A stretch of DNA of 64,000 nt from an uncultured Bacilli bacterium (GCA_947629405.1 CANRDL010000004.1:4098-68097), one strand, 5' to 3'; counted from the stretch's first letter, positions 342-41,826 are shown. Translations and numbers: made by a program. Notes: a model not told the origin generated them from the sequence alone.

Positions 342-2672
342 ATGAAAGGAGGAATTAATTTGAACTATAAACTACCGGTTATTCTCCTTCATGGTCTTTT
401 AATTTTACCTTTTCAAGAAGTAAAGATTGAACTAAATAATGAAATTTCTAAGAAAACATTAAATTTGTCTTCTAAAAATTTTGATGACAATGTTTTAGTT
501 GTATGTCCTTTAGATGAAAAAGAAGAAGAACCAGAAATTTCTGATCTTCCTAAAATTGGCGTTATGGGTAAAATAAAAAGTAAAATTGAATTACCTAATG
601 GTCATTTAAAAATAAGAATTACAGGTTTAAAAAGAGTAGAAATTTTAAAATATCAAAATTATAGTAAAGATACTGATATTTTAGAATCAATATGTAAGCC
701 AATTGATTCTATTAAAATGGATTCTTTAGAAGAAACTGCTTATGTTCGAAAATTAAATGATCGTTTTAAAGAATTAATTAATAAATCCTCTAAATTATCT
801 AATAGTTTATTAAATCCCATAAAAAATGTAGATTCATTATCTAAATTAACTGATATGATTGCTTCATTTTTAAATTTAAATTTTGAAAAAAAATCTTCCT
901 TTATAAAGGAAATTGATCCTAAAAATAGAGCCGAAATGTTAATTAATGATATAAATTTTGAAATTAAATTAATTTCTCTTGATGAAAAATTAGATCAGAA
1001 TTTACAAGATGAGATGCTTCATCAACAAACAGAATATTTAATAAAAGAAAAAATTAATGTATTGAAAAAAGAACTTGGTGAAGAAGTTGGCAGTAATGAT
1101 AGTGCTACATATTATTATCAAAAATTAGATACTTTAAAATTAAATAAAAAAACTTATGATAAGATAAAATCAGAAATTAGAAAATTTGAACGAACTCCGG
1201 AAATTTCGCCAGAATCTTCTACAATTCGTTCGTATCTTGAACTTATTTTAAATATGCCTTGGAATAAAGTGACTAAAGATGAAGAAAATATTATTAAAAT
1301 AAAAAAGACTTTAGATTCATCACATTTTGCTTTAGATGATGTAAAGTCTAGAATAATGGAATATATTGCTGTTAAAAAAAGAAATAAATATATTAAAAGT
1401 CCAATAATATGTTTAGTTGGACCTCCAGGCGTTGGAAAAACAACTTTTGCTTCATCAATTGCCATTGCTTTAAAAAGAGAGTTTTATAAGATTAGTGTCG
1501 GAGGCTTAAATGATGTTTCCGAACTAATTGGTCATCGTCGTACATATTTAGGTGCTGCTCCTGGTAAAATTATTACGGCTATTGCTAAGGCTAATTCTTT
1601 AAATCCTGTTATTTTAATTGATGAAGTTGATAAAATTGTAAAAGATTATAAAGGAGATCCGGCTTCAGCTTTATTAGATATATTAGATTCGGAACAAAAT
1701 AAAATATTTACGGATAATTATTTAGAAGAGCCATTTGATTTATCACAAGTTTTCTTTATTTTAACGGCTAATAACATTGATGATATTCCTCCTATATTAA
1801 AAGATAGATTAGAAATTATTGAATTATCATCTTATACAGAATTTGATAAATTATTGATTGCTAAAAATTATTTAATACCTAAAATCTTTGAATCTCATGT
1901 TATTAAAAATGAAATTATATTTAGTGATAATATTATTTTAAAAATAATTGAGTTATACACAAGAGAAGGCGGTGTAAGAGAACTAGAAAGATGTCTAAAT
2001 AAAATTGTTCGAAAAATAATTAGTGAATCATTAATTTCCAAAACTAAAATTAATGTTAAAGTTAAAACTAGTGATTTGACAAAATATTTAGGTTTACCAA
2101 AATATGAAATAAGTAAAATTTTAAAAGATTCTAAAATTGGTAATGTAAATGCTTTAGCTTATTCAGCCTATGGCGGAATGAATGTTATTATTGAAAGTAA
2201 AATCTTAGATGGTGATGGTAAATTTATAATAACAGGTAATGTTAAAAAAATTATGGAGGAAAGTATTACTGTTGCCAAAAGTTATATTAAATCTAATGCT
2301 AATTTTTTTGATATTAAAGAAAATGTTTTTAAAAGTAAAGACATTCATATTCATTGTTTAACCGCATCATTAGAAAAAGAAGGGCCTTCGGCTGGATGTG
2401 CTATAACAACATCTTTACTTAGTACTTTAAAAAATCATGCAATTGATTCTTCCGTTGCTATGACTGGTGAAATTACTTTAAATGGTGATGTATTAAAAAT
2501 AGGTGGTTTAAAAGAAAAATTAATTGGGGCTTACAATCAAAATATTAGTACTATTTATATTCCTTATTCCAATAAAAATGAATTAGAAAATGTTCCCGAT
2601 AAAATAAAGAAAAATATAAAAATAATTCCTGTTAAAAATTATTCAGAAATATATAAAGAACTATTTTCATAA
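342..2672 (+). CDS. lon: ATP-dependent Lon protease
   Basis: 776 aa. Lon N-domain, Walker A GPPGVGKT, Walker B ILIDEVDK, S16 Ser motif GPSAG and Lys in GGLKEK. The ATG at 342 has no RBS. An in-frame TTG at 360 lies 7 nt after AGGAGG and may be the true start. Confidence 0.95.
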   Translation: MKGGINLNYKLPVILLHGLLILPFQEVKIELNNEISKKTLNLSSKNFDDNVLVVCPLDEKEEEPEISDLPKIGVMGKIKSKIELPNGHLKIRITGLKRVEILKYQNYSKDTDILESICKPIDSIKMDSLEETAYVRKLNDRFKELINKSSKLSNSLLNPIKNVDSLSKLTDMIASFLNLNFEKKSSFIKEIDPKNRAEMLINDINFEIKLISLDEKLDQNLQDEMLHQQTEYLIKEKINVLKKELGEEVGSNDSATYYYQKLDTLKLNKKTYDKIKSEIRKFERTPEISPESSTIRSYLELILNMPWNKVTKDEENIIKIKKTLDSSHFALDDVKSRIMEYIAVKKRNKYIKSPIICLVGPPGVGKTTFASSIAIALKREFYKISVGGLNDVSELIGHRRTYLGAAPGKIITAIAKANSLNPVILIDEVDKIVKDYKGDPASALLDILDSEQNKIFTDNYLEEPFDLSQVFFILTANNIDDIPPILKDRLEIIELSSYTEFDKLLIAKNYLIPKIFESHVIKNEIIFSDNIILKIIELYTREGGVRELERCLNKIVRKIISESLISKTKINVKVKTSDLTKYLGLPKYEISKILKDSKIGNVNALAYSAYGGMNVIIESKILDGDGKFIITGNVKKIMEESITVAKSYIKSNANFFDIKENVFKSKDIHIHCLTASLEKEGPSAGCAITTSLLSTLKNHAIDSSVAMTGEITLNGDVLKIGGLKEKLIGAYNQNISTIYIPYSNKNELENVPDKIKKNIKIIPVKNYSEIYKELFS

Positions 2673-2719
2673 ATTAATCAATCCAATCATAAATTATATC
2701 AGAAAGGATTGATTTTTTT

Positions 2720-3424
2720 ATGAATAAAACTATACCATTTACCAATGACATAATATTTAATACTAAAATTGCTAGTATTACAAGTATTTCTCTTGAACAT
2801 GAAGTTTCTATTAATGATCATGAATTAACTGGTAATTTCATTATTGCTGGTGATTATAAAACTCATGAAGTAAGTGTTAATAAAGAGACTTTTAATTATT
2901 CTTTACCATTTTCAGTTGATTTACCAGACGAAGTAATAAAAGATACCATAAATTTTGATATAACAGATTTTACTTATGATGTAATTGGTGATGATACATT
3001 AAGAGTTAATATTGAATTTGAAGTAGAAGCAAAATTAGAAGAAAAAGAAGAAGAGATTATTCCACTTCCTGAAGAAAAAGTTGAACCAATTATTTTAGAT
3101 GATAAAGAAGAAAGAAAAGAAGAAAACATTAATGAAGATAAACAAGAAGTAGAAGTTAATACTGAAGTTATTGATAATGAAGAACAAATAGAAGAAAAAA
3201 ATGAAAGGTTAGATGAAGAAATAAAAGAAAATATTATATCATCTATTAATAACGAAGAAGATACTTATACAACTTATTATGTTCATATTGTTCGTGAAAA
3301 TGAAACAATAGAGTCAATTTGTGAAAAATTAAAAACAACTAAAGACATAATTGAACAATATAACGATCTTACAACTTTATCAATTAATGATAAATTAATA
3401 ATTCCTAAAAATACTGATGAGTAA
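2720..3424 (+). CDS. spoVID: SpoVID-like spore coat morphogenetic protein (N-terminal SpoVID-type domain, E-rich linker, C-terminal LysM)
   Basis: 234 aa. N-terminus (SISLEHEVSINDHELTGNFIIAGDY) resembles the SpoVID N-domain. Acidic E/K-rich middle. C-terminal LysM (YYVHIVRENETIESICEKL...LSINDKLIIP). Followed by a ysxE-like gene, as in B. subtilis. Confidence 0.6.
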   Translation: MNKTIPFTNDIIFNTKIASITSISLEHEVSINDHELTGNFIIAGDYKTHEVSVNKETFNYSLPFSVDLPDEVIKDTINFDITDFTYDVIGDDTLRVNIEFEVEAKLEEKEEEIIPLPEEKVEPIILDDKEERKEENINEDKQEVEVNTEVIDNEEQIEEKNERLDEEIKENIISSINNEEDTYTTYYVHIVRENETIESICEKLKTTKDIIEQYNDLTTLSINDKLIIPKNTDE

Positions 3425-4316
3425 AACTTTAGAAATAATCAAAAAAGCTTATAAACCATATAGATATACTTATATAAATAATGCAACATTAATTGATACA
3501 TCACAAGGAAAATATGTTGTAAAAAATAAGGGTAAACAAAATATAAAAAAACTATATGAATATCTTCATTCAAGAAATTTTATTAATTTTGCTCCTTTAG
3601 TTGAAAATAATAGAGATGATTTAGAAATTTTTAAATACATTGAAGATATAAAGATATCTAATGATCAAAGAGCATTTGATTTAATTGATATAGTATCTTC
3701 TTTACATAATAAAACATCTTATTTTAAAGATGTTTCAAATGATACATATCAAAGTATTTATGATAATATCTTAAATAATATAAATTATTTGGATAATTAT
3801 TATGATAAATTATATGATGATATTTTTAATGAAGTTTTTATGGCACCCAGTCATTATTTAATAATTAGAAATTATACTTATTTAAAAAATGCTTTAAATT
3901 ATTCTAAAACCACTTTAGATGAATGGTGGGATATAGTAAGTAATGAAGATAAACAGCGAGTTAGTTTAATTCATAATAATTTAAAAACAGAACACTTACT
4001 GGAAAATGAAATGCCTTATTTAATTAGTTGGGAACAATCAAAAATTGATAGTCCGGTTTTAGATTTAATAAAATTTTATCAAAATGAATATTTTGATTTA
4101 AATTTTGAGGAATTATTAAAAAGATATTTACAAAAATATCCTCTTTCTAAAAATGAATTAAAATTATTTTTTACCGTTATTTCAATACCTCCTAAAATTG
4201 AATTTGAAAGTAGCGAAATTAAATCTTGTCAAAATGTAAGAGAAGGTCTTGATTATGTATTTAAAACAGAAAAATTAATAAGGCCATATAATTCGGAAGA
4301 GGAAAAAAAGCAATAA
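3417..4316 (+). CDS. ysxE: CotS/YsxE-family spore coat protein (aminoglycoside-phosphotransferase/kinase-like fold)
   Basis: 299 aa. Overlaps the spoVID-like stop by 8 nt. Has an H-x-N-type catalytic-loop-like segment (LIHNNLKTEHLL). Position downstream of spoVID matches the B. subtilis spoVID-ysxE pair. Confidence 0.5.
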   Translation: MSKTLEIIKKAYKPYRYTYINNATLIDTSQGKYVVKNKGKQNIKKLYEYLHSRNFINFAPLVENNRDDLEIFKYIEDIKISNDQRAFDLIDIVSSLHNKTSYFKDVSNDTYQSIYDNILNNINYLDNYYDKLYDDIFNEVFMAPSHYLIIRNYTYLKNALNYSKTTLDEWWDIVSNEDKQRVSLIHNNLKTEHLLENEMPYLISWEQSKIDSPVLDLIKFYQNEYFDLNFEELLKRYLQKYPLSKNELKLFFTVISIPPKIEFESSEIKSCQNVREGLDYVFKTEKLIRPYNSEEEKKQ

Positions 4317-4460
4317 AGCAACTTCAATAAGTAATATAAAAATATTAAATCTAAGGGGTAAAATTAAAGTTATTAAAACTTGATAAAATATTAAAATTAA
4401 AAGACCAATAATTGCAAATACACCAAATATTGATGGACCTCTACCTCTTTTTGGACACAT
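4275..4460 (-). CDS. Small very hydrophobic protein (2 predicted TM), function unknown
   Basis: 61 aa. Good SD on the minus strand (AGGTGAT then 3 nt then ATG). The 3' end overlaps the convergent ysxE-like gene by about 40 nt. No recognisable family. Confidence 0.35.
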   Translation of the reverse strand: MCPKRGRGPSIFGVFAIIGLLILIFYQVLITLILPLRFNIFILLIEVALLLFFLFRIIWPY

Positions 4461-4529
4461 AATATCACCTGTAATATTTTATGAAAATAAAATTTTATTG
4501 TTATACTTTATTTATAAATAATTTTATTA

Positions 4530-4554
4530 AAAAGTCCATTATGGACTTTTTTTT
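4530..4554 (+). terminator. Rho-independent terminator-like hairpin
   Basis: AAAAGTCCA-tta-TGGACTTTT followed by a T-run. Lies between the ysxE region and the prepilin operon. Confidence 0.55.
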
Positions 4555-4599
4555 CATACTTATAAATGCTATAATTTATTATAATAGGAGAAATAAAAA

Positions 4600-5808
4600 A
4601 TGAATAAAAAAGGATTTGTCGCTTCATCAATTTTATATTCTTTTTTGATAGTGTTTGTTGCTTTAATTATGACAATTATAGCAAATTATGCTTATAATCG
4701 CGTATTGATGAATAGAATATCTGATGATATAAAAAAAGAAGTGGAAACTACTAATGATAATGATATTTCCGGAGCTATTGCTCCCGAAATAGGGGCTAGA
4801 TTTACTCCAATTACCTATGTTGATAATCACTGGATTGTAGCAAATTCTAATAATAAAAATGCTACTTGGTATAATTATCGAGATAAGAAATGGGCTAATG
4901 CTGTTTTAACTAGTGAACTTGATAAAAATATAACTGAAGGTTCAGTAATTTCTGATGAAACAGTTGAAAACTATGGATATGTATGGATTCCTAGATTTAG
5001 ATATCAAATATTTTCTAGTGTAGATGGCAATTGTATTCCTCATAATGATGAAGGTCAAGAACTAACATCTATTCCGAATATAAATGTTATTTTTGAACCC
5101 GAAGAAGGGGCATCAGGGTCACAAGGAGAAGCAATTAATACATATCGAGTTCCAAGTGCCTTTACTTATTATAAAACAGATAATGGTGTAAAAAGTCCAG
5201 TTTTTACTAAGGGATTTTGGATTAAAAAATACCCAGAATATAAATCAGCTTCTGAATATAAATTATTTGATTTTTCAAGCGACCAAGAAATTATTTTCTA
5301 TGCTGGTATTCTATTGCAAAGAAGTAACCATATAATTAGGAACTCTCAATGGGGTGCTGTAGCTTATTTAGCATATAGTAAATATGGATTAGGAACTGAT
5401 ACTGCCGATTCAACTACAGGAAATGAAACTGGAGTATATTATATGAATCATTTTAATAATATAGAAAATCCTAATTATTCAAGAAAAACTGGTGAACTAA
5501 CTGTATATACAAAAACTAGTGATTCGAGTTTTTATGATAAAAGTATATTTCCCATTGATAAAATGCCATTAAATTGGAACCTTGGAGATAATAGTGGTGA
5601 TGCTATGTGTGAAACAAATATAAAATATATATCTTGGAATTTTACTGCTGAGGAAGATGCTACATCAACAATTGATAACTATTTTTTTATTAGAGGATAT
5701 AATTCTAGCAATGATTATAATAATGGTATATTTACTTTTCAAAATATAACACCAAATGATATTAGTGATTATTATGTAAGAGATGTTTATGAAAATATTT
5801 TAAATTAA
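4600..5808 (+). CDS. Large prepilin-like protein (N-terminal KKG|F hydrophobic pilin-type helix, no Glu5) with about 360-aa C-terminal domain
   Basis: 402 aa. N-terminus is MNKKGFVASSILYSFLIVFVALIMTII. AGGAG RBS. First gene of a three-gene pilin-like operon. An extended -10 (TGCTATAAT, 4567-4575) lies upstream. Confidence 0.6.
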   Translation: MNKKGFVASSILYSFLIVFVALIMTIIANYAYNRVLMNRISDDIKKEVETTNDNDISGAIAPEIGARFTPITYVDNHWIVANSNNKNATWYNYRDKKWANAVLTSELDKNITEGSVISDETVENYGYVWIPRFRYQIFSSVDGNCIPHNDEGQELTSIPNINVIFEPEEGASGSQGEAINTYRVPSAFTYYKTDNGVKSPVFTKGFWIKKYPEYKSASEYKLFDFSSDQEIIFYAGILLQRSNHIIRNSQWGAVAYLAYSKYGLGTDTADSTTGNETGVYYMNHFNNIENPNYSRKTGELTVYTKTSDSSFYDKSIFPIDKMPLNWNLGDNSGDAMCETNIKYISWNFTAEEDATSTIDNYFFIRGYNSSNDYNNGIFTFQNITPNDISDYYVRDVYENILN

Positions 5809-5818
5809 GGAGGTAATT

Positions 5819-7309
5819 ATGCAAAATAAAAGAGGCTTTGTTTTCGTGGAAACAATTGTCGTTATTTCTGTTGTATCAATTGCTTTAATTTCTTTATTTA
5901 CATTATTTTATAGTGTATATAATGAAGAACAAAAAAGGTTAAGTTTTGATAATGTAGAAGATTTATATGCTACTTATTTTGTAAAAAAATATTTAGAAGA
6001 AAATAACATAAATAGATGTTTTATTAATTATAATAGTGATGATTTATTTAAAGAAATTAATATGGATTTAAATAATACAGTCACATATACTATTGAGTTA
6101 AGACTTGATGGTCACTCTGGACCATTAACATTTGGGCCTAATAGTTTTTCAGATGGCTCAATTAAAACTGTTTCAATTGCTTATAATATGAATGCTCCAG
6201 TTTTAACATATACTGAGACAGGTAAAGATATTCAAATTTGTTCTTTAGGTACTTGTATTGATGGTAGTGATTCTGTAATGCTGCAATCTTCTTTTCAAAG
6301 GATAAAAAATGGAAACCATTATGATTATATTCAACCATTAACTTTTACCATAACTGTTTCTTCATCAGATAAATGTACTATTCTTCATGACAATGATAAA
6401 ACTAATGGTGAATCTTTTAATACAATGAAAGATAAATTTAATATAAAAAATTTATATCTTGTTACAGGAGATATAACTAATTTAAAATTAAATAAAGCAA
6501 AAAACTTATTAAGTGCTAATGTAATTGATTATATTAAAACCATGTCTAAAAATAGTTCTGGATATTATTTAGTTTCCGAATTTGAAAATAATAATGTAGC
6601 AAGTGTCAAACTAACAACAGATATTAGTAATACAACCGCATTCTCCATACTTTCTGCTAATGATAGTTTAATGAATGCTACTAATACTAATAATGACGGA
6701 ATAACATATGTTCATGGGAATAATCAAAATAATTATGTAAATTTTGCTAATAAATCTTGGCGAATATTAAGAATTAATGAAGATGGTAGTATAAGATTAA
6801 TTTTAGATAAAAAATTAAAACCAATAAAATATGATAAAATTGATGATGAATTAAATACTTTTTATAATAAGTTATCTTCATATAGTGACTATATAGTTTT
6901 ATCAAATTATTGTGAAGATAATTGTAATGATAATAAATGTAATAATATTACCACTAACAATTTTTCATTTGCATGTGATAATTTAGCTTATTATGGTCAA
7001 GCTTCATGGAATGAGATTATGTCTACTTCAAGTAGTTTAGGAAATATTAAAGGACAATCCAGATATCAAAGTTTTCTTTCAGACTTTAATGATAATTTTT
7101 GGATTGGAGCAAAATCAAATAAAGTACCATATTATGTTACACCAAGTTCTGATAACTCAGCTGGTATAAATTATTCTTATATTTATGGTCCCAATATTCC
7201 TATTAATAGTACAACTGCTTATATAAGACCGGTAATAAGTATTAAAGGTAGTGTGGTATTAACTGGTAATGGAAGTAGTAAAAATCCATATCAAATTAAA
7301 AAGGAATAA
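5819..7309 (+). CDS. Large type IV prepilin-type protein (class III signal G|FVFVE) with about 460-aa C-terminal domain
   Basis: 496 aa. MQNKRG|FVFVETIVVISVV is the canonical prepilin cleavage/methylation motif with Glu at +5. AAGGAGG RBS. Contains a Cys-rich segment (YCEDNCNDNKCNN...FACDN). Confidence 0.7.
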   Translation: MQNKRGFVFVETIVVISVVSIALISLFTLFYSVYNEEQKRLSFDNVEDLYATYFVKKYLEENNINRCFINYNSDDLFKEINMDLNNTVTYTIELRLDGHSGPLTFGPNSFSDGSIKTVSIAYNMNAPVLTYTETGKDIQICSLGTCIDGSDSVMLQSSFQRIKNGNHYDYIQPLTFTITVSSSDKCTILHDNDKTNGESFNTMKDKFNIKNLYLVTGDITNLKLNKAKNLLSANVIDYIKTMSKNSSGYYLVSEFENNNVASVKLTTDISNTTAFSILSANDSLMNATNTNNDGITYVHGNNQNNYVNFANKSWRILRINEDGSIRLILDKKLKPIKYDKIDDELNTFYNKLSSYSDYIVLSNYCEDNCNDNKCNNITTNNFSFACDNLAYYGQASWNEIMSTSSSLGNIKGQSRYQSFLSDFNDNFWIGAKSNKVPYYVTPSSDNSAGINYSYIYGPNIPINSTTAYIRPVISIKGSVVLTGNGSSKNPYQIKKE

Positions 7310-7323
7310 TTAGGAGGTTAATA

Positions 7324-7788
7324 ATGAAATTAGGGAAAAAAGGACTAACTCTTATTGAATTAATAGTAACTATAACATTAATATCATTACTTCTTTTATT
7401 CTTATTTAAAATATTAAATACTGTTAATGGAGAAGATAAGTTAGATGACAAAGATATAGAATTAATTTCCATAAAATCAAGTGTTACCAAAAACTTAGAA
7501 AAAATATTTATTGACAAAGAAATTGTATATCAGGAGGATGCCGAGAAATATTATACAGTTGATACAGTTGATAAAAATAAAATTACTATTTATTATGAAA
7601 CTACTGCTAGTGATAACAATAAAGAAACATATACTTTACCAAAGGGGTATTATTTTGGCTCAGTTACAAAATTTAGTGAGAATTATGTTTATTCTATTGA
7701 AATTCCAATTATACATGGTAAAGGAAGTAAAGAAGAAACATTAGATGATCGATATACCATTAAATTATATTATTATGGAAAAAGTTAA
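7324..7788 (+). CDS. Type IV prepilin-type / ComGC-like pseudopilin
   Basis: 154 aa. MKLGKKG|LTLIELIVTITLISLL is the canonical G|xTLIE prepilin motif. TAGGAGG RBS. Confidence 0.75.
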   Translation: MKLGKKGLTLIELIVTITLISLLLLFLFKILNTVNGEDKLDDKDIELISIKSSVTKNLEKIFIDKEIVYQEDAEKYYTVDTVDKNKITIYYETTASDNNKETYTLPKGYYFGSVTKFSENYVYSIEIPIIHGKGSKEETLDDRYTIKLYYYGKS

Positions 7789-8706
7789 AATGGCAAATAC
7801 TACATGTATAAATCGAGATAAGATAAAGTATTTTAAAGAAATATTTTCTTCATTTAAAATACTTTTTATTTGAAAAATTATACAAATACCTGAAAATGAT
7901 AAAAAAGTAATGGCTAAAATTTCTTTTAAATATAAGGAAATATTTAAAGTTTGTAAATTAAATAATCCATTGCTCATTTCTAGTAATCCACTTATTAATA
8001 CTTTAAAAAAATTATTTGTAGGAATTAGTTGAATAATAATATTAGACAATATAGAAAATATAATCATACTCGAAAATATTAATAACATTGTTTTAATAGC
8101 ATCAAAAATTATAGAAGTTAAAATTTCATTTAATTTTTTAGTTTTTTGATTAATATTTGTTAAAATATTTTTAAAATTTAATTTATTATTTTTATTACAT
8201 TTATTAAAATTACGAAAGATAAGTCCGATAAAAATATTAGATACATACAAGCTAAAAATAATTTTTAAGACAATATTTAAGTCTCTAAAAATAGGAAAGG
8301 TAGAATTAATAATAAATATGGGATTAGCAAAAAAAGAAAAACATAATATTTTTTCCGCATCTTTTTTAGTAATATAATTATCTTTAACAAGTTGAATTGT
8401 ATATTTAGCATTTGATGGACTTCCCGTTAAAAGAGACATAATAAATATATATGCTGTTTTTGGATTAATTTTAAATATATGATAAAATGGATAAGAAAAA
8501 AAATAAGAAAGTATTTCTACAAAGCCATAATTTATGAGTATAGATGATAATATAAACATAGGAAAAAGAGAGGGAAAAACTTGAGTAATAAATAATTTAG
8601 ATGTATTTATTATATTTTTTTTAATAAGAAAATTACTCTTAATAAGAAAAAATAATATAATTAATAATAGTAAAATAATAGTTAAATTTTTAATATTTTT
8701 TTTCAT
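7765..8706 (-). CDS. ylbJ: YlbJ-like sporulation integral membrane protein (nucleoside-recognition/Gate-type domain)
   Basis: 313 aa, polytopic. The FPSLFPMFILSSIL...LLTGSPSNAKYT segment resembles YlbJ. Divergent from a ylbL-like gene, as in the B. subtilis ylb region. Confidence 0.55.
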   Translation of the reverse strand: MKKNIKNLTIILLLLIILFFLIKSNFLIKKNIINTSKLFITQVFPSLFPMFILSSILINYGFVEILSYFFSYPFYHIFKINPKTAYIFIMSLLTGSPSNAKYTIQLVKDNYITKKDAEKILCFSFFANPIFIINSTFPIFRDLNIVLKIIFSLYVSNIFIGLIFRNFNKCNKNNKLNFKNILTNINQKTKKLNEILTSIIFDAIKTMLLIFSSMIIFSILSNIIIQLIPTNNFFKVLISGLLEMSNGLFNLQTLNISLYLKEILAITFLSFSGICIIFQIKSILNEENISLKYFILSRFIHVVFAILTFSIII

Positions 8707-8748
8707 ATTTTCTCCAATATTTGTTATAATTTAATAGGGTGGTAATGT

Positions 8749-9756
8749 ATGTTTAATAAAATATATGAAAAAATAAAGAAATTTATAAAAGCAAATAAAA
8801 TATTACTCATTATAATCTTAGTAATATTAATATTATTTTATATTAAACTTCCGTATGTTATATATGCACCGGGTGGTACAATAAATATAGCCAATCGAGT
8901 TACTGTTGATGGTAAAAAGGAAAAAACTAAAGGAAAATTACAACTTTCTTATGTGAGTATGTTCAATGGTTCACCGGCTTTTGTTTTATCGTCTTTTGTA
9001 GTTCCTAATTGGGATCTTGCTAAGAAAGCTGATATAACTTATGAAGATGAAACAATGGATGATATGATAAAAAGAGATAAATTATATTTAAAACAATCTC
9101 AAGATAATGCTACCATTGCCGCTTTTACTCAAGCAAAGAAAAAAATTGAAATTAAACAAGTTCATAACAAAATAGTTTATATTACTAAAAAAAGTGATAC
9201 AAACTTAAAAATTGGCGATGAAATTATTAAAGTTAATGGTAAAAAGATAAAATCATTAGATGAACTTAAACAAATGATTACAAATAGTAAAATAAATACA
9301 AAATTTAATTTTGTTATTAAAAGAAATAACCAAGAAAAAAATGCCTATGCTGTTGTTAAAAAAATTAATAAAGAAAAAGTACTTGGAATATCTTTTTTAA
9401 GCACTTATGATTACACTACGAGTCCTAAAATAAAAATTATGAGTAAAGATAGTGAATCTGGAGCATCTGGTGGATTAATGTTATCTTTAAGTATTTATAA
9501 TAAAATTACTAACAAAGATATAATCAAAGGTCGTAATATAGTTGGTACAGGTACTATTGATGTAGATGGAAAAGTTGGCGAAATAGACGGTGTTAAATAT
9601 AAAGTTATTGGAGCAGCTAGAAATAAAGCCGATATTTTCTTAGTTCCAGTGGCTAATTATAAAGAGGCTAAAAAAACAATTGATAAATATAATTATAAAA
9701 TAAAACTTGTAAAAGTTAGAACTTTAAAAGAAGCTATTAATTATTTAAATAAATAA
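8749..9756 (+). CDS. ylbL: YlbL/SepM-family PDZ plus Lon-like (S16) serine protease
   Basis: 335 aa. N-terminal TM, a PDZ-like segment (GDEIIKVNGKKIKSLDELKQ), and a Lon C-terminal-like Ser motif (GASGGLMLSLSIYN) with a downstream Lys (GVKYKVIGA). Extended -10 TGTTATAAT at 8722-8730. Confidence 0.7.
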   Translation: MFNKIYEKIKKFIKANKILLIIILVILILFYIKLPYVIYAPGGTINIANRVTVDGKKEKTKGKLQLSYVSMFNGSPAFVLSSFVVPNWDLAKKADITYEDETMDDMIKRDKLYLKQSQDNATIAAFTQAKKKIEIKQVHNKIVYITKKSDTNLKIGDEIIKVNGKKIKSLDELKQMITNSKINTKFNFVIKRNNQEKNAYAVVKKINKEKVLGISFLSTYDYTTSPKIKIMSKDSESGASGGLMLSLSIYNKITNKDIIKGRNIVGTGTIDVDGKVGEIDGVKYKVIGAARNKADIFLVPVANYKEAKKTIDKYNYKIKLVKVRTLKEAINYLNK

Positions 9757-9820
9757 TATGTTTCGACAAATTCTATCCTTCAATATTTATATAATTAAGT
9801 AAATATTGGAGGATTTTATT

Positions 9821-10804: not shown

Positions 10805-10806
10805 CG

Positions 10807-11136
10807 ATGAAAACTAAAAAAGGTCATAAATTTTTCTTTTTTATCTTATTTGTTTTATTTATAATTTATGTTGGTCTTTATATTGCTAATATCAGTGGAT
10901 ATTATGAGGCTAAATTAAAAAGAAATACCTATTTAACAAATGAAGAAATTAAAAGATTTGAAGATGACATTAAACAGGGTAAAAATGTTAGTATTAATAA
11001 TTATATTTCTAAAAAAAATTATAATTATAACAATAAGATTTCCAAAGCAGGTCTCTTATTTTCTTCCGGGGTTGAAAAATTTATGAGTGATGGTATTATT
11101 GAAATTTTTGATGTTTTTAAAAAATTATTTACTTAA
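10807..11136 (+). CDS. Small membrane protein, YqxA-like by position
   Basis: 109 aa with one N-terminal TM. Occupies the yqxA slot between spoIIP and lepA. Sequence similarity was not verified. Confidence 0.45.
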   Translation: MKTKKGHKFFFFILFVLFIIYVGLYIANISGYYEAKLKRNTYLTNEEIKRFEDDIKQGKNVSINNYISKKNYNYNNKISKAGLLFSSGVEKFMSDGIIEIFDVFKKLFT

Positions 11137-11174
11137 AATAGCTATAAATGTTATTATAATTATAGGTGTTTATT

Positions 11175-19007: not shown

Positions 19008-19008
19008 T

Positions 19009-37785: not shown

Positions 37786-38541
37786 ATGGCCAAAGAAGGA
37801 AAAATTGTTTGTGTAACATCAGCTAAAGGAGGGGTAGGTAAAACTATATTTTCTATTAATTTAGCTGGAGTTTTAGAAACATTAAATAAAAAAGTATTAA
37901 TTTTAGATTTAGATTTAGCTGGGGGTGGAATAGCCCTTGCTTTGTCATGCGAATATAAAAAAGATTTATATAATATTTATGAAGATTTAAACAACAATAA
38001 ATTTAGTGACATAAAAAAATATATTACTAAGTATGATAACAAAATTGATTTTATTGCAGCTCCTAAAGATCCGCGTAATGCCAAAAAAATAGATGGTAGG
38101 TATCTAAAATTTATTTTTGATAATTTATCATACTTATATGATGCCATTATTGTTGATACTAATCACTTTTTAACTGATGCAACATTAGTTACTTTAGATC
38201 TTGCTGATAATATATTTTTTATGATGACAAATGATCCATTTGATGTTAAAAATATGAAATCTCTATTAAGTATTTTTAGAGAACTTGATAAAGATAATTA
38301 TAAAATTATTTTAAATGACGCTATTGATCATTGTAAAAATTATTTTTCATTTTATGATCTTCGAAGCATAATAAAAAGTAATATAGATTATACTTTATCT
38401 CCTGCATCATATGTTAAAAACATCGATACCTTAGTTTTAAATGGCAAAATTGTAACTTTAGATAAAGTTTATAAAGCATCTCGCGATTATGGTGTATATT
38501 TGAAAATAGCGACAAATATTTTTGAAAAAGAGGAGGAATAA
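37786..38541 (+). CDS. MinD/ParA-superfamily ATPase, TadZ/CpaE-like (no receiver domain)
   Basis: 251 aa. Deviant Walker A VTSAKGGVGKT and Walker B-like IIVDTN. First gene of the Tad-like cluster. Confidence 0.7.
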   Translation: MAKEGKIVCVTSAKGGVGKTIFSINLAGVLETLNKKVLILDLDLAGGGIALALSCEYKKDLYNIYEDLNNNKFSDIKKYITKYDNKIDFIAAPKDPRNAKKIDGRYLKFIFDNLSYLYDAIIVDTNHFLTDATLVTLDLADNIFFMMTNDPFDVKNMKSLLSIFRELDKDNYKIILNDAIDHCKNYFSFYDLRSIIKSNIDYTLSPASYVKNIDTLVLNGKIVTLDKVYKASRDYGVYLKIATNIFEKEEE

Positions 38542-38544
38542 AAA

Positions 38545-39765
38545 ATGAATAATACTTTAGCTGATGTATTTGAGGTAAAAAATAATAATGATTACAATAA
38601 TGTATCTGATTATGATGCTTTTAAAGATAAGAAATTATTAAATGAAATTCGCGTTAATATTTTAACAAATATTTCTGATATTAATGAGGATTCATTAACA
38701 CAAGATTTAATAAATGGAATTGTTGAAAAAGAGTTAAATAAACATGATTTATCTAATTTAGAAAGAAGCTACGTTTATAATTTAATTGATAATGAGGTAA
38801 ATGGTTGTGGACCGATTACTGAATTATTAAAAGATCCTATTATTTCCGAAATAATGGTTAATAGTCCAAGTGAAATTTATATTGAATCTAATGGGAAAAT
38901 ATTAAAAGATGACAGTGTGTCTTTTATAGATGATAATCATATAATTAGAACGGTTAATAAATTAATTGAAGATACTAATTTAATTTTAGACTTAGAACAT
39001 CCTTTAATTGATACCAGAATTAAAGATGGTTCACATATAAATGCTGTCATTCCCCCAATATCTGTAAAGGGACCAATATTTACAATTAAAAAAGTAAATA
39101 AAAATATTATGAATATAAATGATTTAATTAGATTAGGTACTTTAACTTCCAAAATGGCTAATTTTTTAGAAGAGGCCGTAAAATCTAAATTAAATATCAT
39201 AGTTTGTGGTAATTCAAATAGTGGTAAAAATACATTATTAAATATTTTATGTGGTTTTATTCCTGAAGATGAAAGAATTGTAACAATTGAAGATAATGCT
39301 TTTTTGAGTTTATCTCAAAAAAATGTTGTCGCTTTAGAAGAAAATAATATTAACAAAAAAAATTATAATTCTAATTTAATAACATTAGCTAAAAAATTAA
39401 AACCTAATAGGGTAATAATTGGTGGAATTAATAAAGAAAATACATTTGATATTTTACAATTAATGAATACTGGTTTTTGTACTATGACATCAATGCATGC
39501 TGGAAGTGTTAAAGATGTCTTATCAATAATTTCTACTAATGTTTTATTAAATGGTATAGATGTACCAAGTAGTGTTATAAAAGAGTATATGTGTTCAGGA
39601 ATTGATTTAATTGTCAATATCGATATTTTAAAAGATGGAAGTAGAAAAGTTACTTCAATAAGCAAAATTATAAAAACAAATGGTGTATTTCAAATTGCTG
39701 AAATTTTTGCATATAAGAAAAATAAAAATGATGAAAATGGCGAATTTGTAAGTTATAAATTATAA
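38545..39765 (+). CDS. CpaF/TadA-family secretion ATPase homologue with substituted catalytic motifs
   Basis: 406 aa, collinear with CpaF. Walker A is GNSNSGKN (Asn where T/S is expected). The Walker B region is PNRVIIGGINK versus canonical PDRIIVGEVRG. The His box is NTGF versus NTGH. The Asp-box is TIEDNAFL versus TIEDxAEL. Confidence 0.7.
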   Translation: MNNTLADVFEVKNNNDYNNVSDYDAFKDKKLLNEIRVNILTNISDINEDSLTQDLINGIVEKELNKHDLSNLERSYVYNLIDNEVNGCGPITELLKDPIISEIMVNSPSEIYIESNGKILKDDSVSFIDDNHIIRTVNKLIEDTNLILDLEHPLIDTRIKDGSHINAVIPPISVKGPIFTIKKVNKNIMNINDLIRLGTLTSKMANFLEEAVKSKLNIIVCGNSNSGKNTLLNILCGFIPEDERIVTIEDNAFLSLSQKNVVALEENNINKKNYNSNLITLAKKLKPNRVIIGGINKENTFDILQLMNTGFCTMTSMHAGSVKDVLSIISTNVLLNGIDVPSSVIKEYMCSGIDLIVNIDILKDGSRKVTSISKIIKTNGVFQIAEIFAYKKNKNDENGEFVSYKL

Positions 39766-39795
39766 AATAAGTTAATAAAAAGAAAGGAGAAATCT

Positions 39796-40791
39796 ATGAA
39801 TTTAAAAATATTAATAGTATTATTTATTGCTTTAATAATGATTATCTATTTATTAAAAAATTGGATAGATGTAAAAAAAATTAATAAATATGAAAATAGA
39901 TTTTCTCTTTTTTCTTATGGATTAAATCAGGATGAAAATTTAAAATATTATGAAAGACTTAAATATTATTTTATTAAACATTTAAAAATTATCTCTGTTG
40001 TTTTAGAAAAATTTAAATTTTTTAGAAAATATTCAAATAAATATAAGAAATTTGAAAATTCTAAAAGTGACATGAAAAAAATAGATTATGTTTCTTTAAA
40101 ATTTTTTATTACTTTGGTATTTTTATTTTTGGTAATTATATTTAATATTTTTAAAATACTACCTTATTCATTAATTTTAAGTTTATTTATTATAATATTT
40201 GGCTTTTATTTTTTAGATATTATTCTCTTACTTAAATATCATAAAATTAAAATAGATTTAGAAAGTGATTTATATAAAGCCATCCAAATTATAAATACTA
40301 ATTTAAAAACCAAGAGTATAACTACTTCAATTTTGGAAGTGACTAAAAAATTAGATGGCCCAATAAAAAATGAATTTAAAATAATATATAAGGAATTGAA
40401 AAGGGGCATTTCAGTTGATGAAGCTTTTAAAAAATTTTACAAGAAATATAAAATTAAAATGGTTAAAAACATTTATTTACTTATTATAATGACTGATGAT
40501 AATAATTCCAATTACCAAGAATTATTTTCGAATCTAGAACTTCGTTTAAAAGAACAAGAAAAATTTGTTGATAGTATGTCTCTTTCCAAAGTTACGACCT
40601 TAATCTTATTTTTATTTTTTTCTATATTACCAATTTTGATGATAATAATAATATTGAATATAAAGAAAACTTACTTTGATGCTTTTTTTAATACTTATGC
40701 CGGAATAATTAGTTTAATAGTATTGCTTGCAATATATATTGTATATATAAGAGAAATGATAAAATTGATTGGTGATGATGATTATGAGTAG
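39796..40791 (+). CDS. TadB-like type II secretion system F-domain membrane protein
   Basis: 331 aa. N-terminal TM, a central TM pair, a T2SSF-like helical domain (LYKAIQIINTNLKTKSITTSILEV...ELKRGISVDEAFKKF), and C-terminal TMs. Confidence 0.6.
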   Translation: MNLKILIVLFIALIMIIYLLKNWIDVKKINKYENRFSLFSYGLNQDENLKYYERLKYYFIKHLKIISVVLEKFKFFRKYSNKYKKFENSKSDMKKIDYVSLKFFITLVFLFLVIIFNIFKILPYSLILSLFIIIFGFYFLDIILLLKYHKIKIDLESDLYKAIQIINTNLKTKSITTSILEVTKKLDGPIKNEFKIIYKELKRGISVDEAFKKFYKKYKIKMVKNIYLLIIMTDDNNSNYQELFSNLELRLKEQEKFVDSMSLSKVTTLILFLFFSILPILMIIIILNIKKTYFDAFFNTYAGIISLIVLLAIYIVYIREMIKLIGDDDYE

Positions 40792-41236
40792 AAAAAAATT
40801 AACTAGTTTAGAATATCAAGGTTATTATTTTACTGAAGCGTTATTAGTGAATTTACAAACTAATAATTTAATTAATTCTCTTTATTATGTTTGTAATCAT
40901 ATTGATTGTAAATTATCTAAAGAAATTTATAAAGCTTTAAAAGGCCTTGAAAATGGTATGAATTTTAAAGAAAGTTTCACTAATTTAAAAAATAAATTTC
41001 AATCAAAATATATCATAAATTTAATTAATTTATTAATTAAAAATAAACAAAAAGAAAAAACATTATATAAAGAATTAAGCGAATTTTGCACTAAATATTC
41101 TAAAGATATAATAATAAATGAAAAGAATAAAAGTAATGATTTACCTCTAAAAATTGCTATATTTTCTATGTTATTTATTGTTCCAATAATAATTTTAATA
41201 ATAAGTTTACCTATAATTATTGAAAAGTTTTTTTAA
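40784..41236 (+). CDS. TadC-like T2SSF-domain membrane protein (short)
   Basis: About 150 aa. Helical domain (ALKGLENGMNFKESFTNL) and a C-terminal TM. Overlaps the upstream gene by 8 nt. Confidence 0.5.
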   Translation: MSRKKLTSLEYQGYYFTEALLVNLQTNNLINSLYYVCNHIDCKLSKEIYKALKGLENGMNFKESFTNLKNKFQSKYIINLINLLIKNKQKEKTLYKELSEFCTKYSKDIIINEKNKSNDLPLKIAIFSMLFIVPIIILIISLPIIIEKFF

Positions 41237-41271: not shown

Positions 41272-41826
41272 ATGAAGAAAAACAAAAACAAAAATAAAAA
41301 TAAATTAAATCAAAAAATATTTATTTTGATAATTATACTTATATTTGTAATTGTTGGGTCAATTACATTAACATATGGTTTTTATGCATCTAAATTTGAT
41401 ACTAAAATAAGTCCTGTTAATATTAGTTCAACCGTTAAAAATTTTTCATTAGATTATTCTGAAGGAACTCCAACAATAAATGAACCTGATATTTTACCGG
41501 GATGGTCTGCTAAAAAAACTGTTACTATTACTAATTCAAATAGTTCATCAGCAACTTACAGTTTAGTATTTAAAAAACTTTCAAATGGCTTTACAAATGG
41601 AGACTTAGTATATTCTGGAACTTGTAAATCTGGGGGAGCTACTGTTAAAACAATTTCTGAAACTGCTGTACCAGCAAGTGGTACTGATTTGAAAATTGCT
41701 GAAAGTATAGCTATAGATGGAAGTGCCACTCATACATGCGATATAACTTTTAAATTTAAAGAAACTAATAGTGATCAAAGTACTAATAAAGGTAAAACAT
41801 TTACTGCTACATTAGGAATTGCCTAA
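41272..41826 (+). CDS. Secreted/anchored beta-rich protein with TasA/camelysin-like (SipW-type) N-terminal signal motif; candidate fibre subunit
   Basis: 184 aa. KN-repeat N-terminus and an h-region ending GSITLTYGFYASKFDT (compare the TasA-class GGTFAYFSD). S/T/N-rich body with PGWSAKKTVTITNSN, like TasA's PGDK...ENNGS strand. Terminal gene of the Tad-like operon. Confidence 0.4.
   Translation: MKKNKNKNKNKLNQKIFILIIILIFVIVGSITLTYGFYASKFDTKISPVNISSTVKNFSLDYSEGTPTINEPDILPGWSAKKTVTITNSNSSSATYSLVFKKLSNGFTNGDLVYSGTCKSGGATVKTISETAVPASGTDLKIAESIAIDGSATHTCDITFKFKETNSDQSTNKGKTFTATLGIA

What the first reader, a model, noticed from the sequence alone, without database searches (positions are those of the whole stretch)
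4600..7788. Orphan operon of three prepilin-type proteins, two of them very large
Three consecutive genes with strong RBSs begin with class III-type signal/pilin helices. These are KKG|FVASS (no Glu5), KRG|FVFVE (Glu5) and KKG|LTLIE (Glu5). The first two carry C-terminal domains of about 360 and 460 aa, much larger than ComGC or typical type IV pilins. The third is pilin-sized at 154 aa. No assembly ATPase, platform protein or prepilin peptidase is adjacent; the flanks are spoVID/ysxE and ylbJ. The only secretion ATPase and platform genes in the window are the degenerate Tad-like set 30 kb away, which itself lacks a class III pilin. The large C-terminal domains could be adhesive or enzymatic tip modules. 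They contain motifs such as GYVWIPRFRYQ, WRILRINEDGSIRLIL, a Cys-rich patch, and AYIRPVISIKG...NPYQIK.
Basis: partly seen in the sequence, partly recalled or inferred. Interest (0 to 1): 0.6.

Follow-up and report, generated by a model that had tools for sequence, protein, structure and literature searches.

The report
Conserved pilin-like trio carrying lectin-fold modules
Three adjacent genes encode type IV pilin-like proteins, two of which are conserved "carrier" parts fused to fast-evolving lectin-fold binding modules; this is a new variant of the known "modular pilin" idea in an uncultured, spore-forming gut bacterium, encoded apart from any working assembly machinery.

Summary
Three co-directional genes sit at 4600-5808 (p1), 5819-7309 (p2) and 7324-7788 (p3). 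All have strong RBSs and open with MNKKG|FVASS, MQNKRG|FVFVE and MKLGKKG|LTLIE.

They form a recurrent gene module in uncultured gut Bacilli-like genomes, usually between ysxE and ylbJ. Orthologues at the same site can be small (p1 202 aa, p2 169-181 aa), so the large C-termini are grafted cargo.

- **p1 cargo:** related to the FGE-type C-type-lectin fold.
- **p2 cargo:** related to DUF6273, which the literature also models as lectin-like.
- **Rates:** carrier parts are under strong purifying selection (omega 0.05-0.25); cargo evolves fast (omega 0.5-0.9, with indels).

In other genomes the same pilin types lie directly behind PilC-PilD-pilin (1 locus) or Flp-TadE-TadZABC (7 loci). The window has no prepilin peptidase and no Flp. 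Its only ATPase, Tad-like, has lost the Walker A, Walker B, catalytic Glu and His-box residues.

Best reading: a minor-pilin-like tip/adhesin set that depends on machinery encoded elsewhere. Processing and assembly are untested. I rate it a new variant of modular pilins, of moderate interest.

The parts
4567..4575 (+). Extended -10 promoter-like element TGCTATAAT upstream of p1
   Evidence: Read directly. The same TGCTATAAT sits at the same distance from the ATG in the orthologous loci L003 and L001, although the surrounding sequence has diverged in L001. Function is inferred, not shown.
4600..5808 (+). p1: a pilin-like protein without Glu5. It has the leader MNKKG, a long N-terminal helix (residues 3-52), no separate pilin head, and a roughly 340-aa ectodomain of the FGE-type C-type-lectin-related family.
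   Evidence: ORF. AF2 model: helix 3-52, pLDDT 72. The family has 2253 members at E<=1e-3. The family profile hits PDB 5VF4 (TaqVP, CLec fold) at E 8.4e-6, and 27 of 55 members weakly hit PF03781. The N-terminal helix type recurs next to p2- and p3-type genes in 32 of 80 metagenome loci, with cargo of 0-400 aa. omega is 0.05-0.25 for residues 1-170 and 0.82-0.86 for residues 171-402.
5819..7309 (+). p2: a modular pilin-like protein. It has the leader MQNKRG, a Glu5 helix, a small pilin-like module (about residues 1-80 and 196-270) interrupted by a variable insertion of about 115 aa (residues 81-195), and a C-terminal DUF6273-related module (about residues 290-496).
   Evidence: ORF. N-module family: invariant G6, F7, E11 and Y50, with 764 relatives in the exhaustive search. 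Orthologues have 0 C-terminal modules (L014 181 aa, L178 169 aa), 1 (window, P0002) or 2 (P0003). hhalign of the C-terminal module against a DUF6273-bearing canonical pilin gives 90.9% probability, E 1.2e-6. Region-wise omega is 0.11, 0.54, 0.20, 0.72 and 0.72.
7324..7788 (+). p3: a small canonical prepilin-type protein (leader MKLGKKG, LTLIELIV...)
   Evidence: Pfam N_methyl 24.3 bits (cutoff 21.2) and TIGR02532 23.6 bits (cutoff 16.3). p3-like genes accompany p2-like genes in 50 of 80 metagenome loci. omega is 0.12 against L003.
3417..4316 (+). ysxE-like gene, the conserved upstream neighbour
   Evidence: TIGR02904, E 3.6e-24. A ysxE homologue lies upstream of the pilin module in 22 of 80 loci that were retrieved only by the p2 N-terminal motif.
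7765..8706 (-). ylbJ-like gene, the conserved convergent downstream neighbour; its 3' end overlaps the 3' end of p3 by 24 nt
   Evidence: TIGR02871, E 7.3e-46. A ylbJ homologue lies downstream on the opposite strand in 31 of 80 loci. The overlap is visible.
37786..41236 (+). Tad-like set: ParA/TadZ-like, TadA-like ATPase (38545-39765), and TadB- and TadC-like proteins. It is the only type-4-filament machinery in the window and appears degenerate.
   Evidence: Pfam AAA_31, T2SSE and two T2SSF hits; TIGR03819 TadA family, E 3.5e-50. It is 48% identical to the TadA of operons that carry p2/p3-like genes. Its motifs are degraded: Walker A GNSNSGKN against GGTGSGKT, Walker B/Glu NRVIIGGINK against DRIIVGEVRG, and His box TGF-CT against TGHEGS. 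No Flp or TadE genes lie upstream.
41272..41826 (+). 184-aa protein with a SipW/TasA-type signal (…LTYGFYASKFD), last gene of the Tad-like set. It is the positional counterpart of the SipW-signal proteins that precede p2/p3-like genes in related Tad operons.
   Evidence: Sequence. Homologues and positional equivalents occur in L105, L108, L111 and L137.

Best explanation
The three genes encode a conserved trio of type IV pilin-like proteins. I read them as the minor-pilin-like tip or priming set of a type 4 filament in an uncultured, spore-forming, very AT-rich gut Bacilli-like lineage.

**Proposed mechanism**
- Each protein inserts into the membrane through its N-terminal class III-type signal.
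- A prepilin peptidase encoded elsewhere would cut after the Gly. This step is inferred.
- The three hydrophobic helices would then pack together at the top of a filament.
- p1 lacks Glu5 and has no pilin head, so it would be the terminal cap. This is by analogy with GspK and ComGG.
- p1 and p2 act as carriers. Their conserved helix or pilin parts present fast-evolving ligand-binding cargo: an FGE-type C-type-lectin-related domain on p1, and a variable insertion plus a DUF6273-related lectin-like domain on p2.
- p3 is a plain connecting pilin.

**Likely function and machinery**
The likely function is adhesion to glycans or other surface ligands in the gut. The motor, platform, peptidase and major pilin are not in the operon. 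The Tad-like set 30 kb away is evolutionarily linked to this pilin type but looks catalytically dead, so assembly probably depends on an unlinked PilC/PilD-type system or another ATPase.

**Shown:** gene structure, family conservation, modularity, rate mosaic, and the genomic associations.
**Inferred:** cleavage, incorporation into a filament, tip position, and ligand type.
For: **The trio is real and is a recurrent module**
- Three consecutive ORFs have strong RBSs and pilin-like N-termini.
- p3 passes the N_methyl models.
- p2 family: G6, F7 and E11 are invariant.
- p1 family: G and F are at least 90% conserved, and the first 30 residues are the best-conserved part.
- Among 80 metagenome loci, arrangements are p1-p2-p3, p2-p1-p3, p2-p3 or p1-p2. 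32 loci have a p1-type partner and 50 have a p3-type partner.

**The large parts are grafted cargo**
- Syntenic orthologues can be small: L014 p2 is 181 aa; L178 p1 is 202 aa and p2 is 169 aa. P0003 has two C-terminal modules.
- p1-type helices carry other cargo elsewhere, for example CBM_4_9 in L168, and helix-only versions of 54 aa exist.

**Cargo identity**
- The p1 family profile hits the TaqVP CLec-fold structure 5VF4 at E 8.4e-6, and 27 of 55 members weakly hit FGE-sulfatase.
- The p2 module aligns to a DUF6273-bearing pilin with hhalign probability 90.9%.
- DUF6273 is modelled as C-type-lectin-like in PMC10743442.

**Link to type 4 filament machinery**
- L168: PilC-PilD-pilin-p1-p2-p3.
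- L020: PilC-PilD followed by canonical pilins carrying the same two cargo types.
- Seven loci: Flp-TadE-TadZABC-(SipW-signal protein)-p2-p3, with TadA 48% identical to the window's copy.

**Selection**
- Carrier omega is 0.05-0.25; cargo omega is 0.54-0.86 with indels; the neighbour ysxE is at 0.04.
Against: - No prepilin peptidase, PilB/ComGA-type ATPase, PilC, major pilin or Flp is present in the 64-kb window.
- The only T2SSE ATPase has lost its key catalytic residues.
- p1 and p2 themselves fail the curated pilin models.
- p1 has no Glu5, and its model has no pilin head.
- The p2 model is poor (pLDDT 52.7).
- Foldseek gave no significant match for either model. The lectin-fold assignments therefore rest on weak profile-level sequence evidence, and neither Pfam family is hit by the window proteins themselves.
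- The same cargo modules also occur on SipW/TasA-type and ordinary signal anchors, so the cargo does not by itself imply a pilus.
- Known tip complexes have four minor pilins; only three genes are present here.
Confidence: 0.58

Rival explanations
1. Relic pilin anchors. The three proteins are no longer cut or polymerised. They stay in the membrane as N-in/C-out bitopic proteins, using the ancestral pilin helix only as a signal anchor. Alone or as a membrane complex, they display their lectin-fold domains at the cell surface.
For: - No peptidase or intact motor is present in the window, and the Tad-like ATPase is degenerate.
- p1 lacks Glu5 and a pilin head.
- p1 and p2 fail the curated pilin models.
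- The same cargo is found on non-pilin anchors in related genomes.
- Most trio loci are far from any machinery.
Against: - The N-terminal 30 residues, including the G-F junction, are the most conserved part of p1-type proteins: omega 0.05, and 50% identity against 19% in the adjacent linker. This is more constraint than a plain anchor needs.
- Glu5 is invariant in the p2 family.
- Helix-only p1-type genes of 54 aa exist, which make little sense as anchors for nothing.
- The trio is found in operons with PilC-PilD or with intact Tad machinery in other genomes.
Confidence: 0.22
2. Tad-system accessory pilins. The trio is the displaced pseudopilin set of the Tad-like system at 37.8-41.2 kb, functionally like TadE, TadF and TadG. 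p2 and p3 would be processed pseudopilins, and the large Glu5-less p1 would be a TadG-like anchored adhesin.
For: - In seven loci, p2-like and p3-like genes lie in the same operon directly after TadZ-TadA-TadB-TadC.
- The window TadA is 48% identical to those ATPases.
- The window set lacks pilin genes of its own.
- The positional counterpart of the window's TasA-like gene precedes p2/p3 in those operons.
- p3 has a faint TadF hit, E 0.012.
Against: - The window TadA has lost the Walker A Thr, Walker B Asp, catalytic Glu and a His-box His, all of which are intact in the seven linked operons.
- Those operons already have their own Flp and TadE-type genes, with a different signal type (G|QALVEY/F).
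- None of the seven has a p1-type gene.
- The one locus with the full p1-p2-p3 order follows PilC-PilD, not Tad.
- p1, p2 and p3 have no TadE or Tad_N Pfam hits at threshold.
Confidence: 0.2
3. Competence (Com) pilus minor pilins. The trio is a rearranged ComGD/E/F/G-type set used for DNA uptake.
For: - Members of the p2 N-module family give weak NCBIfam hits to ComGE (22 of 34), ComGF (21 of 34) and ComGD (10 of 34).
- ComGG also lacks Glu5 (own knowledge).
- An Acholeplasma-like MAG has a pilin-CLec gene 3 kb from comEA-comEC.
Against: - All hits are far below the equivalog cutoffs: at most about 19 bits for the window's p2 (best E among family members 1.3e-5), against cutoffs of 49-80 bits. 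They cover only the N-terminal helix region.
- No comGA, comGB or comGC is adjacent here or in about 170 related loci.
- The linked platform proteins score best as GspF/PilC, with ComGB below its cutoff.
- Bulky, fast-evolving lectin-fold cargo is not a Com pilus feature (PMC12153270).
Confidence: 0.07
4. Sporulation-linked surface structure. The trio is expressed during sporulation and builds or decorates a spore or mother-cell surface structure, which would explain its fixed position between spoVID/ysxE and ylbJ.
For: - The ysxE-[trio]-ylbJ synteny is conserved in many loci: ylbJ in 31 of 80, ysxE in 22 of 80, a spoVID-like gene in 18 of 80.
- The Tad-like set abuts spoIIGA-sigE.
Against: - A sigma-A-type extended -10 (TGCTATAAT) is conserved upstream of p1.
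- The flanking blocks follow ancestral Bacilli gene order (own knowledge of the B. subtilis map), so the synteny can be simple vertical inheritance.
- No sporulation promoter or regulator evidence was obtained.
Confidence: 0.08

Closest known systems
Modular type IV pilins (Streptococcus sanguinis PilB with a vWA module and PilC with a lectin module; Raynaud et al. 2021, PMC8179133; PMC9934059)
   Same: An N-terminal class III signal and a small pilin carrier are fused to a bulky ligand-binding module. They are minor pilins in a monoderm and are predicted to be tip-exposed. The cargo type varies between homologues.
   Different: - The cargo families here (FGE-type CLec-related and DUF6273-related) are not among the architectures named in that paper's main text; its dataset was not checked.
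- p1 has no Glu5 and no pilin head.
- The genes are not in a pil operon.
- The same cargo is also found on TasA/SipW-type carriers.
Tip-located minor pilin complexes (GspH-I-J-K of the T2SS; ComGD-E-F-G of the Com pilus; PMC12153270)
   Same: A small set of co-transcribed minor pilins, one of which lacks Glu5 and is the largest. By analogy with GspK and ComGG (own knowledge), that subunit caps the filament. Function is conferred at the tip.
   Different: There are three genes, not four. No sequence membership was established: only sub-threshold ComGE/F/D hits. The genes are unlinked from the ATPase, platform and major pilin.
Tad (type IVc) pilus loci with TadE/TadF pseudopilins and the large TadG
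   Same: p2/p3-like genes are co-operonic with TadZ-A-B-C in seven related loci. The layout of two processed small subunits plus one large Glu5-less adhesin-like protein matches the TadE/F/G logic.
   Different: - The signal type is N_methyl-like (G|F-x-x-x-E), not Flp/TadE-like.
- There are no TadE or Tad_N domain hits.
- The window's Tad set lacks Flp and TadE and has a degenerate ATPase.
C-type-lectin-fold variable proteins of diversity-generating retroelements (TaqVP 5VF4, Mtd, TvpA; DUF6273 phage receptor-binding proteins)
   Same: The p1 family profile matches TaqVP, and the p2 module is related to DUF6273. These are ligand-binding scaffolds that tolerate high variation, and the cargo here evolves fast.
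   Different: The window has no template repeat and no reverse transcriptase. All repeats found are low-complexity chance matches. Variation here is ordinary divergence with indels, not targeted adenine mutagenesis.

Membership tests
Type IV pilin / class III signal peptide (PF07963, TIGR02532) | Short basic leader ending in Gly, followed by a hydrophobic helix of about 20 residues | tested here: met
   MNKKG|, MQNKRG| and MKLGKKG|, each followed by hydrophobic stretches. Modelled helices span residues 3-52 (p1) and 5-43 (p2).
Type IV pilin / class III signal peptide (PF07963, TIGR02532) | Glu at position +5 of the mature protein | tested here: inconclusive
   Present in p2 (FVFVE) and p3 (LTLIE), and invariant in the p2 family. 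Absent in p1 (FVASS) and in the whole p1-type helix family. GspK and ComGG also lack it (own knowledge).
Type IV pilin / class III signal peptide (PF07963, TIGR02532) | Score above the curated model cutoffs | tested here: inconclusive
   p3 passes (24.3 against 21.2; 23.6 against 16.3). p2 fails (10.8 and 12.0). p1 has no hit.
Type IV pilin / class III signal peptide (PF07963, TIGR02532) | Cleavage and N-methylation by a prepilin peptidase encoded in the genome | not testable with these tools
   No Peptidase_A24 gene is in the window, by motif scan or by phmmer/tblastn with a verified PilD. The rest of the genome is not available. Related lineages do encode one next to such pilins (L020, L168).
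Modular pilins (sensu Raynaud et al. 2021) | A pilin module plus a separable extra module that is absent from some homologues | tested here: met
   p2 orthologues have 0, 1 or 2 C-terminal modules. p1-type helices have cargo ranging from none to CBM_4_9 or CLec-related. The mosaic of selection rates separates carrier from cargo.
Com pilus minor pilins ComGD/E/F/G (NCBIfam equivalogs) | Score above the equivalog cutoff and location in a comGA-G operon | tested here: not met
   The window's p2 scores at most 19.2 bits against cutoffs of 49-80, and other family members also stay sub-threshold (best E 1.3e-5). No comGA, comGB or comGC is adjacent in any locus examined.
Tad pseudopilins (TadE PF07811, Tad_N PF13400, TadF PF16964) | TadE/Tad_N N-terminal domain, and linkage to tadZABC | tested here: inconclusive
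   There are no TadE or Tad_N hits. p3 hits TadF at E 0.012, 16 bits against a cutoff of 27.3. Linkage to tadZABC is seen for p2/p3-like genes in 7 of 80 loci, but in the window the set is 30 kb away.
FGE-sulfatase / FGE-type C-type-lectin fold (PF03781), for the p1 ectodomain | Pfam gathering score, or significant structural similarity to a CLec fold | tested here: inconclusive
   The window p1 has no Pfam hit. 27 of 55 family members have sub-threshold hits (best E 3.3e-4). The family profile hits 5VF4 at E 8.4e-6 over about 90 residues. Foldseek against PDB and BFVD found nothing at E<=1e-3; the model's pLDDT in that half is about 50-60.
DUF6273 (PF19789), for the p2 C-terminal module | Pfam gathering score | tested here: inconclusive
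   The window p2 has no hit, and 2 of 24 family members do (best E 2e-5). hhalign to the DUF6273-bearing pilin of L020 gives 90.9% probability, E 1.2e-6.
Diversity-generating retroelement target | A template repeat matching the 3' end of the gene, plus a reverse transcriptase nearby | tested here: not met
   No repeat of p1 or p2 sequence occurs anywhere in the window. No RT domain was found among the scanned neighbours.

The most novel reading that the evidence does not exclude
This uncultured gut lineage may run a cargo-swapping display system. The same lectin-fold binding modules would be shuffled among three carrier types: helix-only Glu5-less pilin-like proteins (p1-type), small canonical pilin modules (p2-type), and SipW/TasA-signal proteins.

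Under this reading, p1-p2-p3 is a previously undescribed three-subunit tip complex. It can be plugged into either a PilC/PilD-type or a Tad-type machine. The TasA-like proteins would be integral parts of the Tad-type operon, implying a hybrid or entirely new kind of filament.

In the window's organism the Tad ATPase has become a pseudo-enzyme, yet the trio has gained large cargo. That would imply a repurposed or motor-independent assembly route.
Probability: 0.2. Interest if true: 0.75.

Novelty: new variant of a known kind. Interest (0 to 1): 0.5.

Why it matters
Modular pilins explain how simple type 4 filaments acquire new functions, but few have been characterised, and mostly in cultured pathogens.

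This case offers several things:
- **A recurrent carrier set.** Three genes recur in many uncultured gut Bacilli/Mollicutes-like genomes. The carrier is strongly conserved while the lectin-fold cargo is swapped and evolves fast.
- **Candidate adhesins.** It points to host- or glycan-adhesion determinants in a poorly known, spore-forming part of the gut microbiota.
- **A Glu5-less, head-less pilin-like subunit.** This may be a minimal tip cap.
- **A natural experiment.** The pilin set is retained and elaborated while the linked Tad motor decays.
- **Scaffold sharing.** Lectin-fold display modules, already known from DGR targets and phage receptor-binding proteins, appear on both pilin and TasA-type scaffolds.

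Tried and rejected
- **Direct sequence searches of p1 and p2.** PDB found nothing at E<=0.1; PHROGs found nothing for p1/p2 and only insignificant p3 matches (best E 0.014).
- **Foldseek.** The p1 model against PDB and BFVD, and the p2 model against PDB, gave no match at E<=1e-3. The p2 model is too poor to use (pLDDT 52.7).
- **DGR hypothesis.** It was prompted by the CLec and DUF6273 links, but no template repeat was found.
- **Flp-type pilin ORF search in the window.** None found. No Flp or TadE genes lie upstream of the ParA-like gene.
- **Prepilin peptidase and PilC search.** A motif scan, and phmmer/tblastn with verified L020 proteins, found none in the window or near the Tad-linked loci.
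- **Relatedness of the p1 and p2 cargo modules to each other.** hhalign probability is 4%, so this was rejected.
- **Naming the organism or reaching the rest of the genome.** Two exact look-ups of window proteins were not on record. The GTDB scan returned only distant relatives, labelled uncultured Bacilli, Tenericutes or Mycoplasmatota.
- **Sigma-70 scan.** The region is so AT-rich that matches are at background level (54 found against 45.9 expected). Only the phylogenetically conserved TGCTATAAT was kept.
- **Terminators.** No terminator-like site was called. A weak AT-rich hairpin at 4530-4556 is not conserved in L001.

Full report
**Observation.** The window is very AT-rich (about 23% G+C). 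Each is preceded by a strong Shine-Dalgarno sequence: AGGAGA, AAGGAGG and AGGAGG. The N-termini are MNKKG|FVASSILYSFLIVF..., MQNKRG|FVFVETIVVISVV... and MKLGKKG|LTLIELIVTITLI.... A six-frame scan found ORF-initial pilin-like N-termini in the 64-kb window only at these three genes. Only p3 passes curated pilin models: Pfam N_methyl 24.3 against 21.2 bits, and TIGR02532 23.6 against 16.3. p2 is sub-threshold and p1 gives nothing. The flanks are ysxE-like and ylbJ-like, with a LysM protein and lon upstream, and a SepM/YlbL-like protease, spoIIP and lepA downstream.

**The N-termini are conserved features, not chance.** The p1 family is large: 2253 proteins at E<=1e-3. In an alignment of 55 members, the Gly-Phe junction is at least 90% conserved. 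For distant Glu5-less members, the first 30 residues are 50% identical to the window protein. The next 30 residues are 19% identical and the ectodomain is 30% identical. An exhaustive HMMER search with p2 found 764 relatives in two groups: one matches only residues 1-90 and the other only residues 270-495. An alignment of 34 short N-module relatives has invariant G6, F7, E11 and Y50. Against the closest relative, L003, the carrier parts are under strong purifying selection. omega is 0.05 and 0.25 for p1 residues 1-60 and 61-170, 0.11 and 0.20 for p2 residues 1-80 and 196-290, and 0.12 for p3.

**The trio is a recurrent module and the big domains are add-ons.** Close relatives keep the same three genes in the same place (L001, L003-L005, L096-L097). 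I scanned metagenomes using only the p2 N-terminal motif and obtained 80 loci.
- 32 loci have a p1-type partner and 50 have a p3-type partner.
- Arrangements are p1-p2-p3, p2-p1-p3, p2-p3 or p1-p2.
- A ylbJ homologue follows in 31 loci, a SepM-like gene in 30, ysxE precedes in 22, and a spoVID-like gene in 18.

The position between ysxE and ylbJ is therefore a stable core-genome feature of the lineage. In syntenic relatives the proteins are small: L014 p2 is 181 aa, and in L178 p1 is 202 aa and p2 is 169 aa. P0003 carries two copies of the p2 C-terminal module. The p1-type helix (MxKKGF[IV][AS][TS]S[IL][IL]YSFFL...) heads proteins of 49 to 456 aa, including helix-only versions of 54 aa and one with a CBM_4_9 carbohydrate-binding domain. 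The large parts of p1 and p2 are thus grafted cargo on conserved carriers. This is the definition of modular pilins given by Raynaud et al. (PMC8179133).

**What the cargo is.** The window p1 has no Pfam hit. However, 27 of 55 family members weakly hit FGE-sulfatase (best E 3.3e-4). The family profile matches PDB 5VF4 at E 8.4e-6. That structure is the Thermus aquaticus DGR variable protein TaqVP, an FGE-type C-type-lectin fold. The matched blocks (HPAF..., HMMKNxEWGAVAYL) are conserved in the window protein as SAFTYY... and HIIRNSQWGAVAYL.

The cargo regions evolve fast, with indels. omega is 0.82-0.86 for p1 residues 171-402, 0.54 for the p2 insertion at 81-195, and 0.72 for p2 residues 291-496. 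The neighbour ysxE is at 0.04. This is the pattern expected of exposed binding or antigenic surfaces.

**Link to type 4 filament machinery.** Nothing is adjacent in the window or in 80 genome loci around p1-family genes. Three contexts elsewhere are informative.
- **L020** (uncultured Bacilli MAG): a PilC-like platform (T2SSF, E 6.6e-49), then a prepilin peptidase (A24_N_bact 2.2e-33, Peptidase_A24 6e-15), then a canonical pilin with DUF6273 and a canonical pilin with the p1-type cargo.
- **L168:** PilC, PilD, a 152-aa pilin, then p1-type, p2-type and p3-type genes in the window's order, then a 1355-aa modular pilin.
- **Seven loci** (L101, L105-L108, L126, L129): Flp-like pilin, TadE, Tad/TadE-like, ParA/TadZ, TadA, TadB, TadC, usually (5 of the 7) an intervening large gene — a SipW/TasA-signal protein carrying a p2-type module where examined (L105, L108) — then p2-like and p3-like genes.

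The TadA of those operons is 48% identical to the window's TadA-like protein.

**The window's Tad-like set is degenerate.** It has no Flp or TadE genes. Its ATPase has GNSNSGKN in place of GGTGSGKT, NRVIIGGINK in place of DRIIVGEVRG, and TGF-CT in place of TGHEGS. All seven linked homologues keep the canonical motifs. The set ends with a 184-aa protein bearing a SipW/TasA-type signal, which is the positional counterpart of the SipW-signal proteins in the related operons. No prepilin peptidase is detectable in the window.

**Interpretation.** I read the trio as a minor-pilin-like tip/adhesin set of a type 4 filament. p1 would be a Glu5-less, head-less cap, by analogy with GspK and ComGG. p2 would be a modular pilin and p3 a plain connector. 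The two lectin-fold cargos would mediate binding. Assembly must depend on genes outside the operon, and probably not on the decayed Tad ATPase alone. Gene structure, conservation, modularity, the rate mosaic and the genomic associations are shown. Cleavage, polymerisation, tip position and ligand are inferred.

The main rival is that the proteins now act as uncleaved membrane-anchored adhesins. Smaller rivals are a dedicated Tad accessory role, a Com pilus role (all ComG hits are far below cutoff), or a sporulation-linked role suggested by synteny. The last is countered by a conserved sigma-A-type TGCTATAAT upstream of p1.

**Novelty.** Modular pilins and minor-pilin tip complexes are known. 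I found no description of the following features: this particular three-gene carrier family, its Glu5-less helix-only member, the lectin-fold cargo types, the sharing of cargo with TasA/SipW-type carriers, and the habitual separation from machinery. I rate it a new variant of a known kind, of moderate interest. It would become more interesting if the carrier set proves to be a new kind of tip complex, or if TasA-like proteins really are part of a Tad-type filament.

Noticed in passing
window 38545-39765 (+): The TadA-like ATPase keeps a full-length ORF, 48% identical to intact homologues. It has lost the Walker A Thr (GNSNSGKN), the Walker B Asp and catalytic Glu (NRVIIGGINK), and the first His of the His box (TGF-CT). 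It is probably a pseudo-enzyme. Identical copies occur in several samples (L011-L013).
   Followed up: yes
window 41272-41826 (+): The 184-aa protein after TadC has a SipW/TasA/camelysin-type signal (…GSITLTYGFYASKFD) and sits just upstream of spoIIGA-sigE. In related Tad operons the same position holds SipW-signal proteins carrying the p2-type lectin-like module. This suggests TasA-like proteins are a regular part of this Tad-type operon.
   Followed up: partly
window 4275-4460 (-): An unannotated 61-aa ORF with two predicted TM segments (MCPKRGRGPSIFGVFAIIGLL...) and an AGGTGA RBS is transcribed divergently from p1 and overlaps the ysxE 3' end by 42 nt. It is 98% identical in L003 and 85% identical in L001, where p1 and p2 are only about 50% identical, so it is probably a real small membrane-protein gene.
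   Followed up: partly
L105 3456-4396 and 9820-10963 (also L101, L106-L108; L126 and L129 lack the intervening gene): One Tad-type operon encodes two different prepilin signal types: Flp/TadE-type (G|QALVEY/F) at its start and N_methyl-type (G|FVFVE, G|FTLME) at its end. No prepilin peptidase lies within 10 kb.
   Followed up: partly
window 16627-21128 (+): A four-gene block encodes a 502-aa protein, a Yip1-domain membrane protein, a 500-aa WG_beta_rep protein and a 206-aa protein with a weak HVO_0416 hit. It follows an SPFH/SHOCT gene. Its function is unknown.
   Followed up: no
window 4530-4556 (+): An AT-rich hairpin, AAAAGTCCAttaTGGACTTTTTTTT, lies between the small minus-strand ORF and the p1 promoter. 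It was not called by the terminator scan (too few G-C pairs). It is conserved in L003 but not in L001.
   Followed up: partly
L015-L094 (genome loci): The p1-type and p2-type cargo modules are multi-copy in uncultured Bacilli, Tenericutes and Mycoplasmatota MAGs. They are attached to at least four N-terminal types: canonical pilin, Glu5-less helix, SipW/TasA plus Peptidase_M73-like, and ordinary signal anchors. They also occur in giant proteins; one 4905-aa protein matches the p2 query in 16 stretches.
   Followed up: partly
window 342-12971 compared with the B. subtilis map: Gene order joins two blocks that resemble ancestral Bacilli arrangements: lon-spoVID-ysxE and ylbJ-ylbL-like...spoIIP-yqxA-like-lepA. 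The pilin trio sits at the junction. In B. subtilis the prepilin peptidase gene comC lies a few genes after ysxE (own knowledge), and L105 has valS after p3.
   Followed up: no
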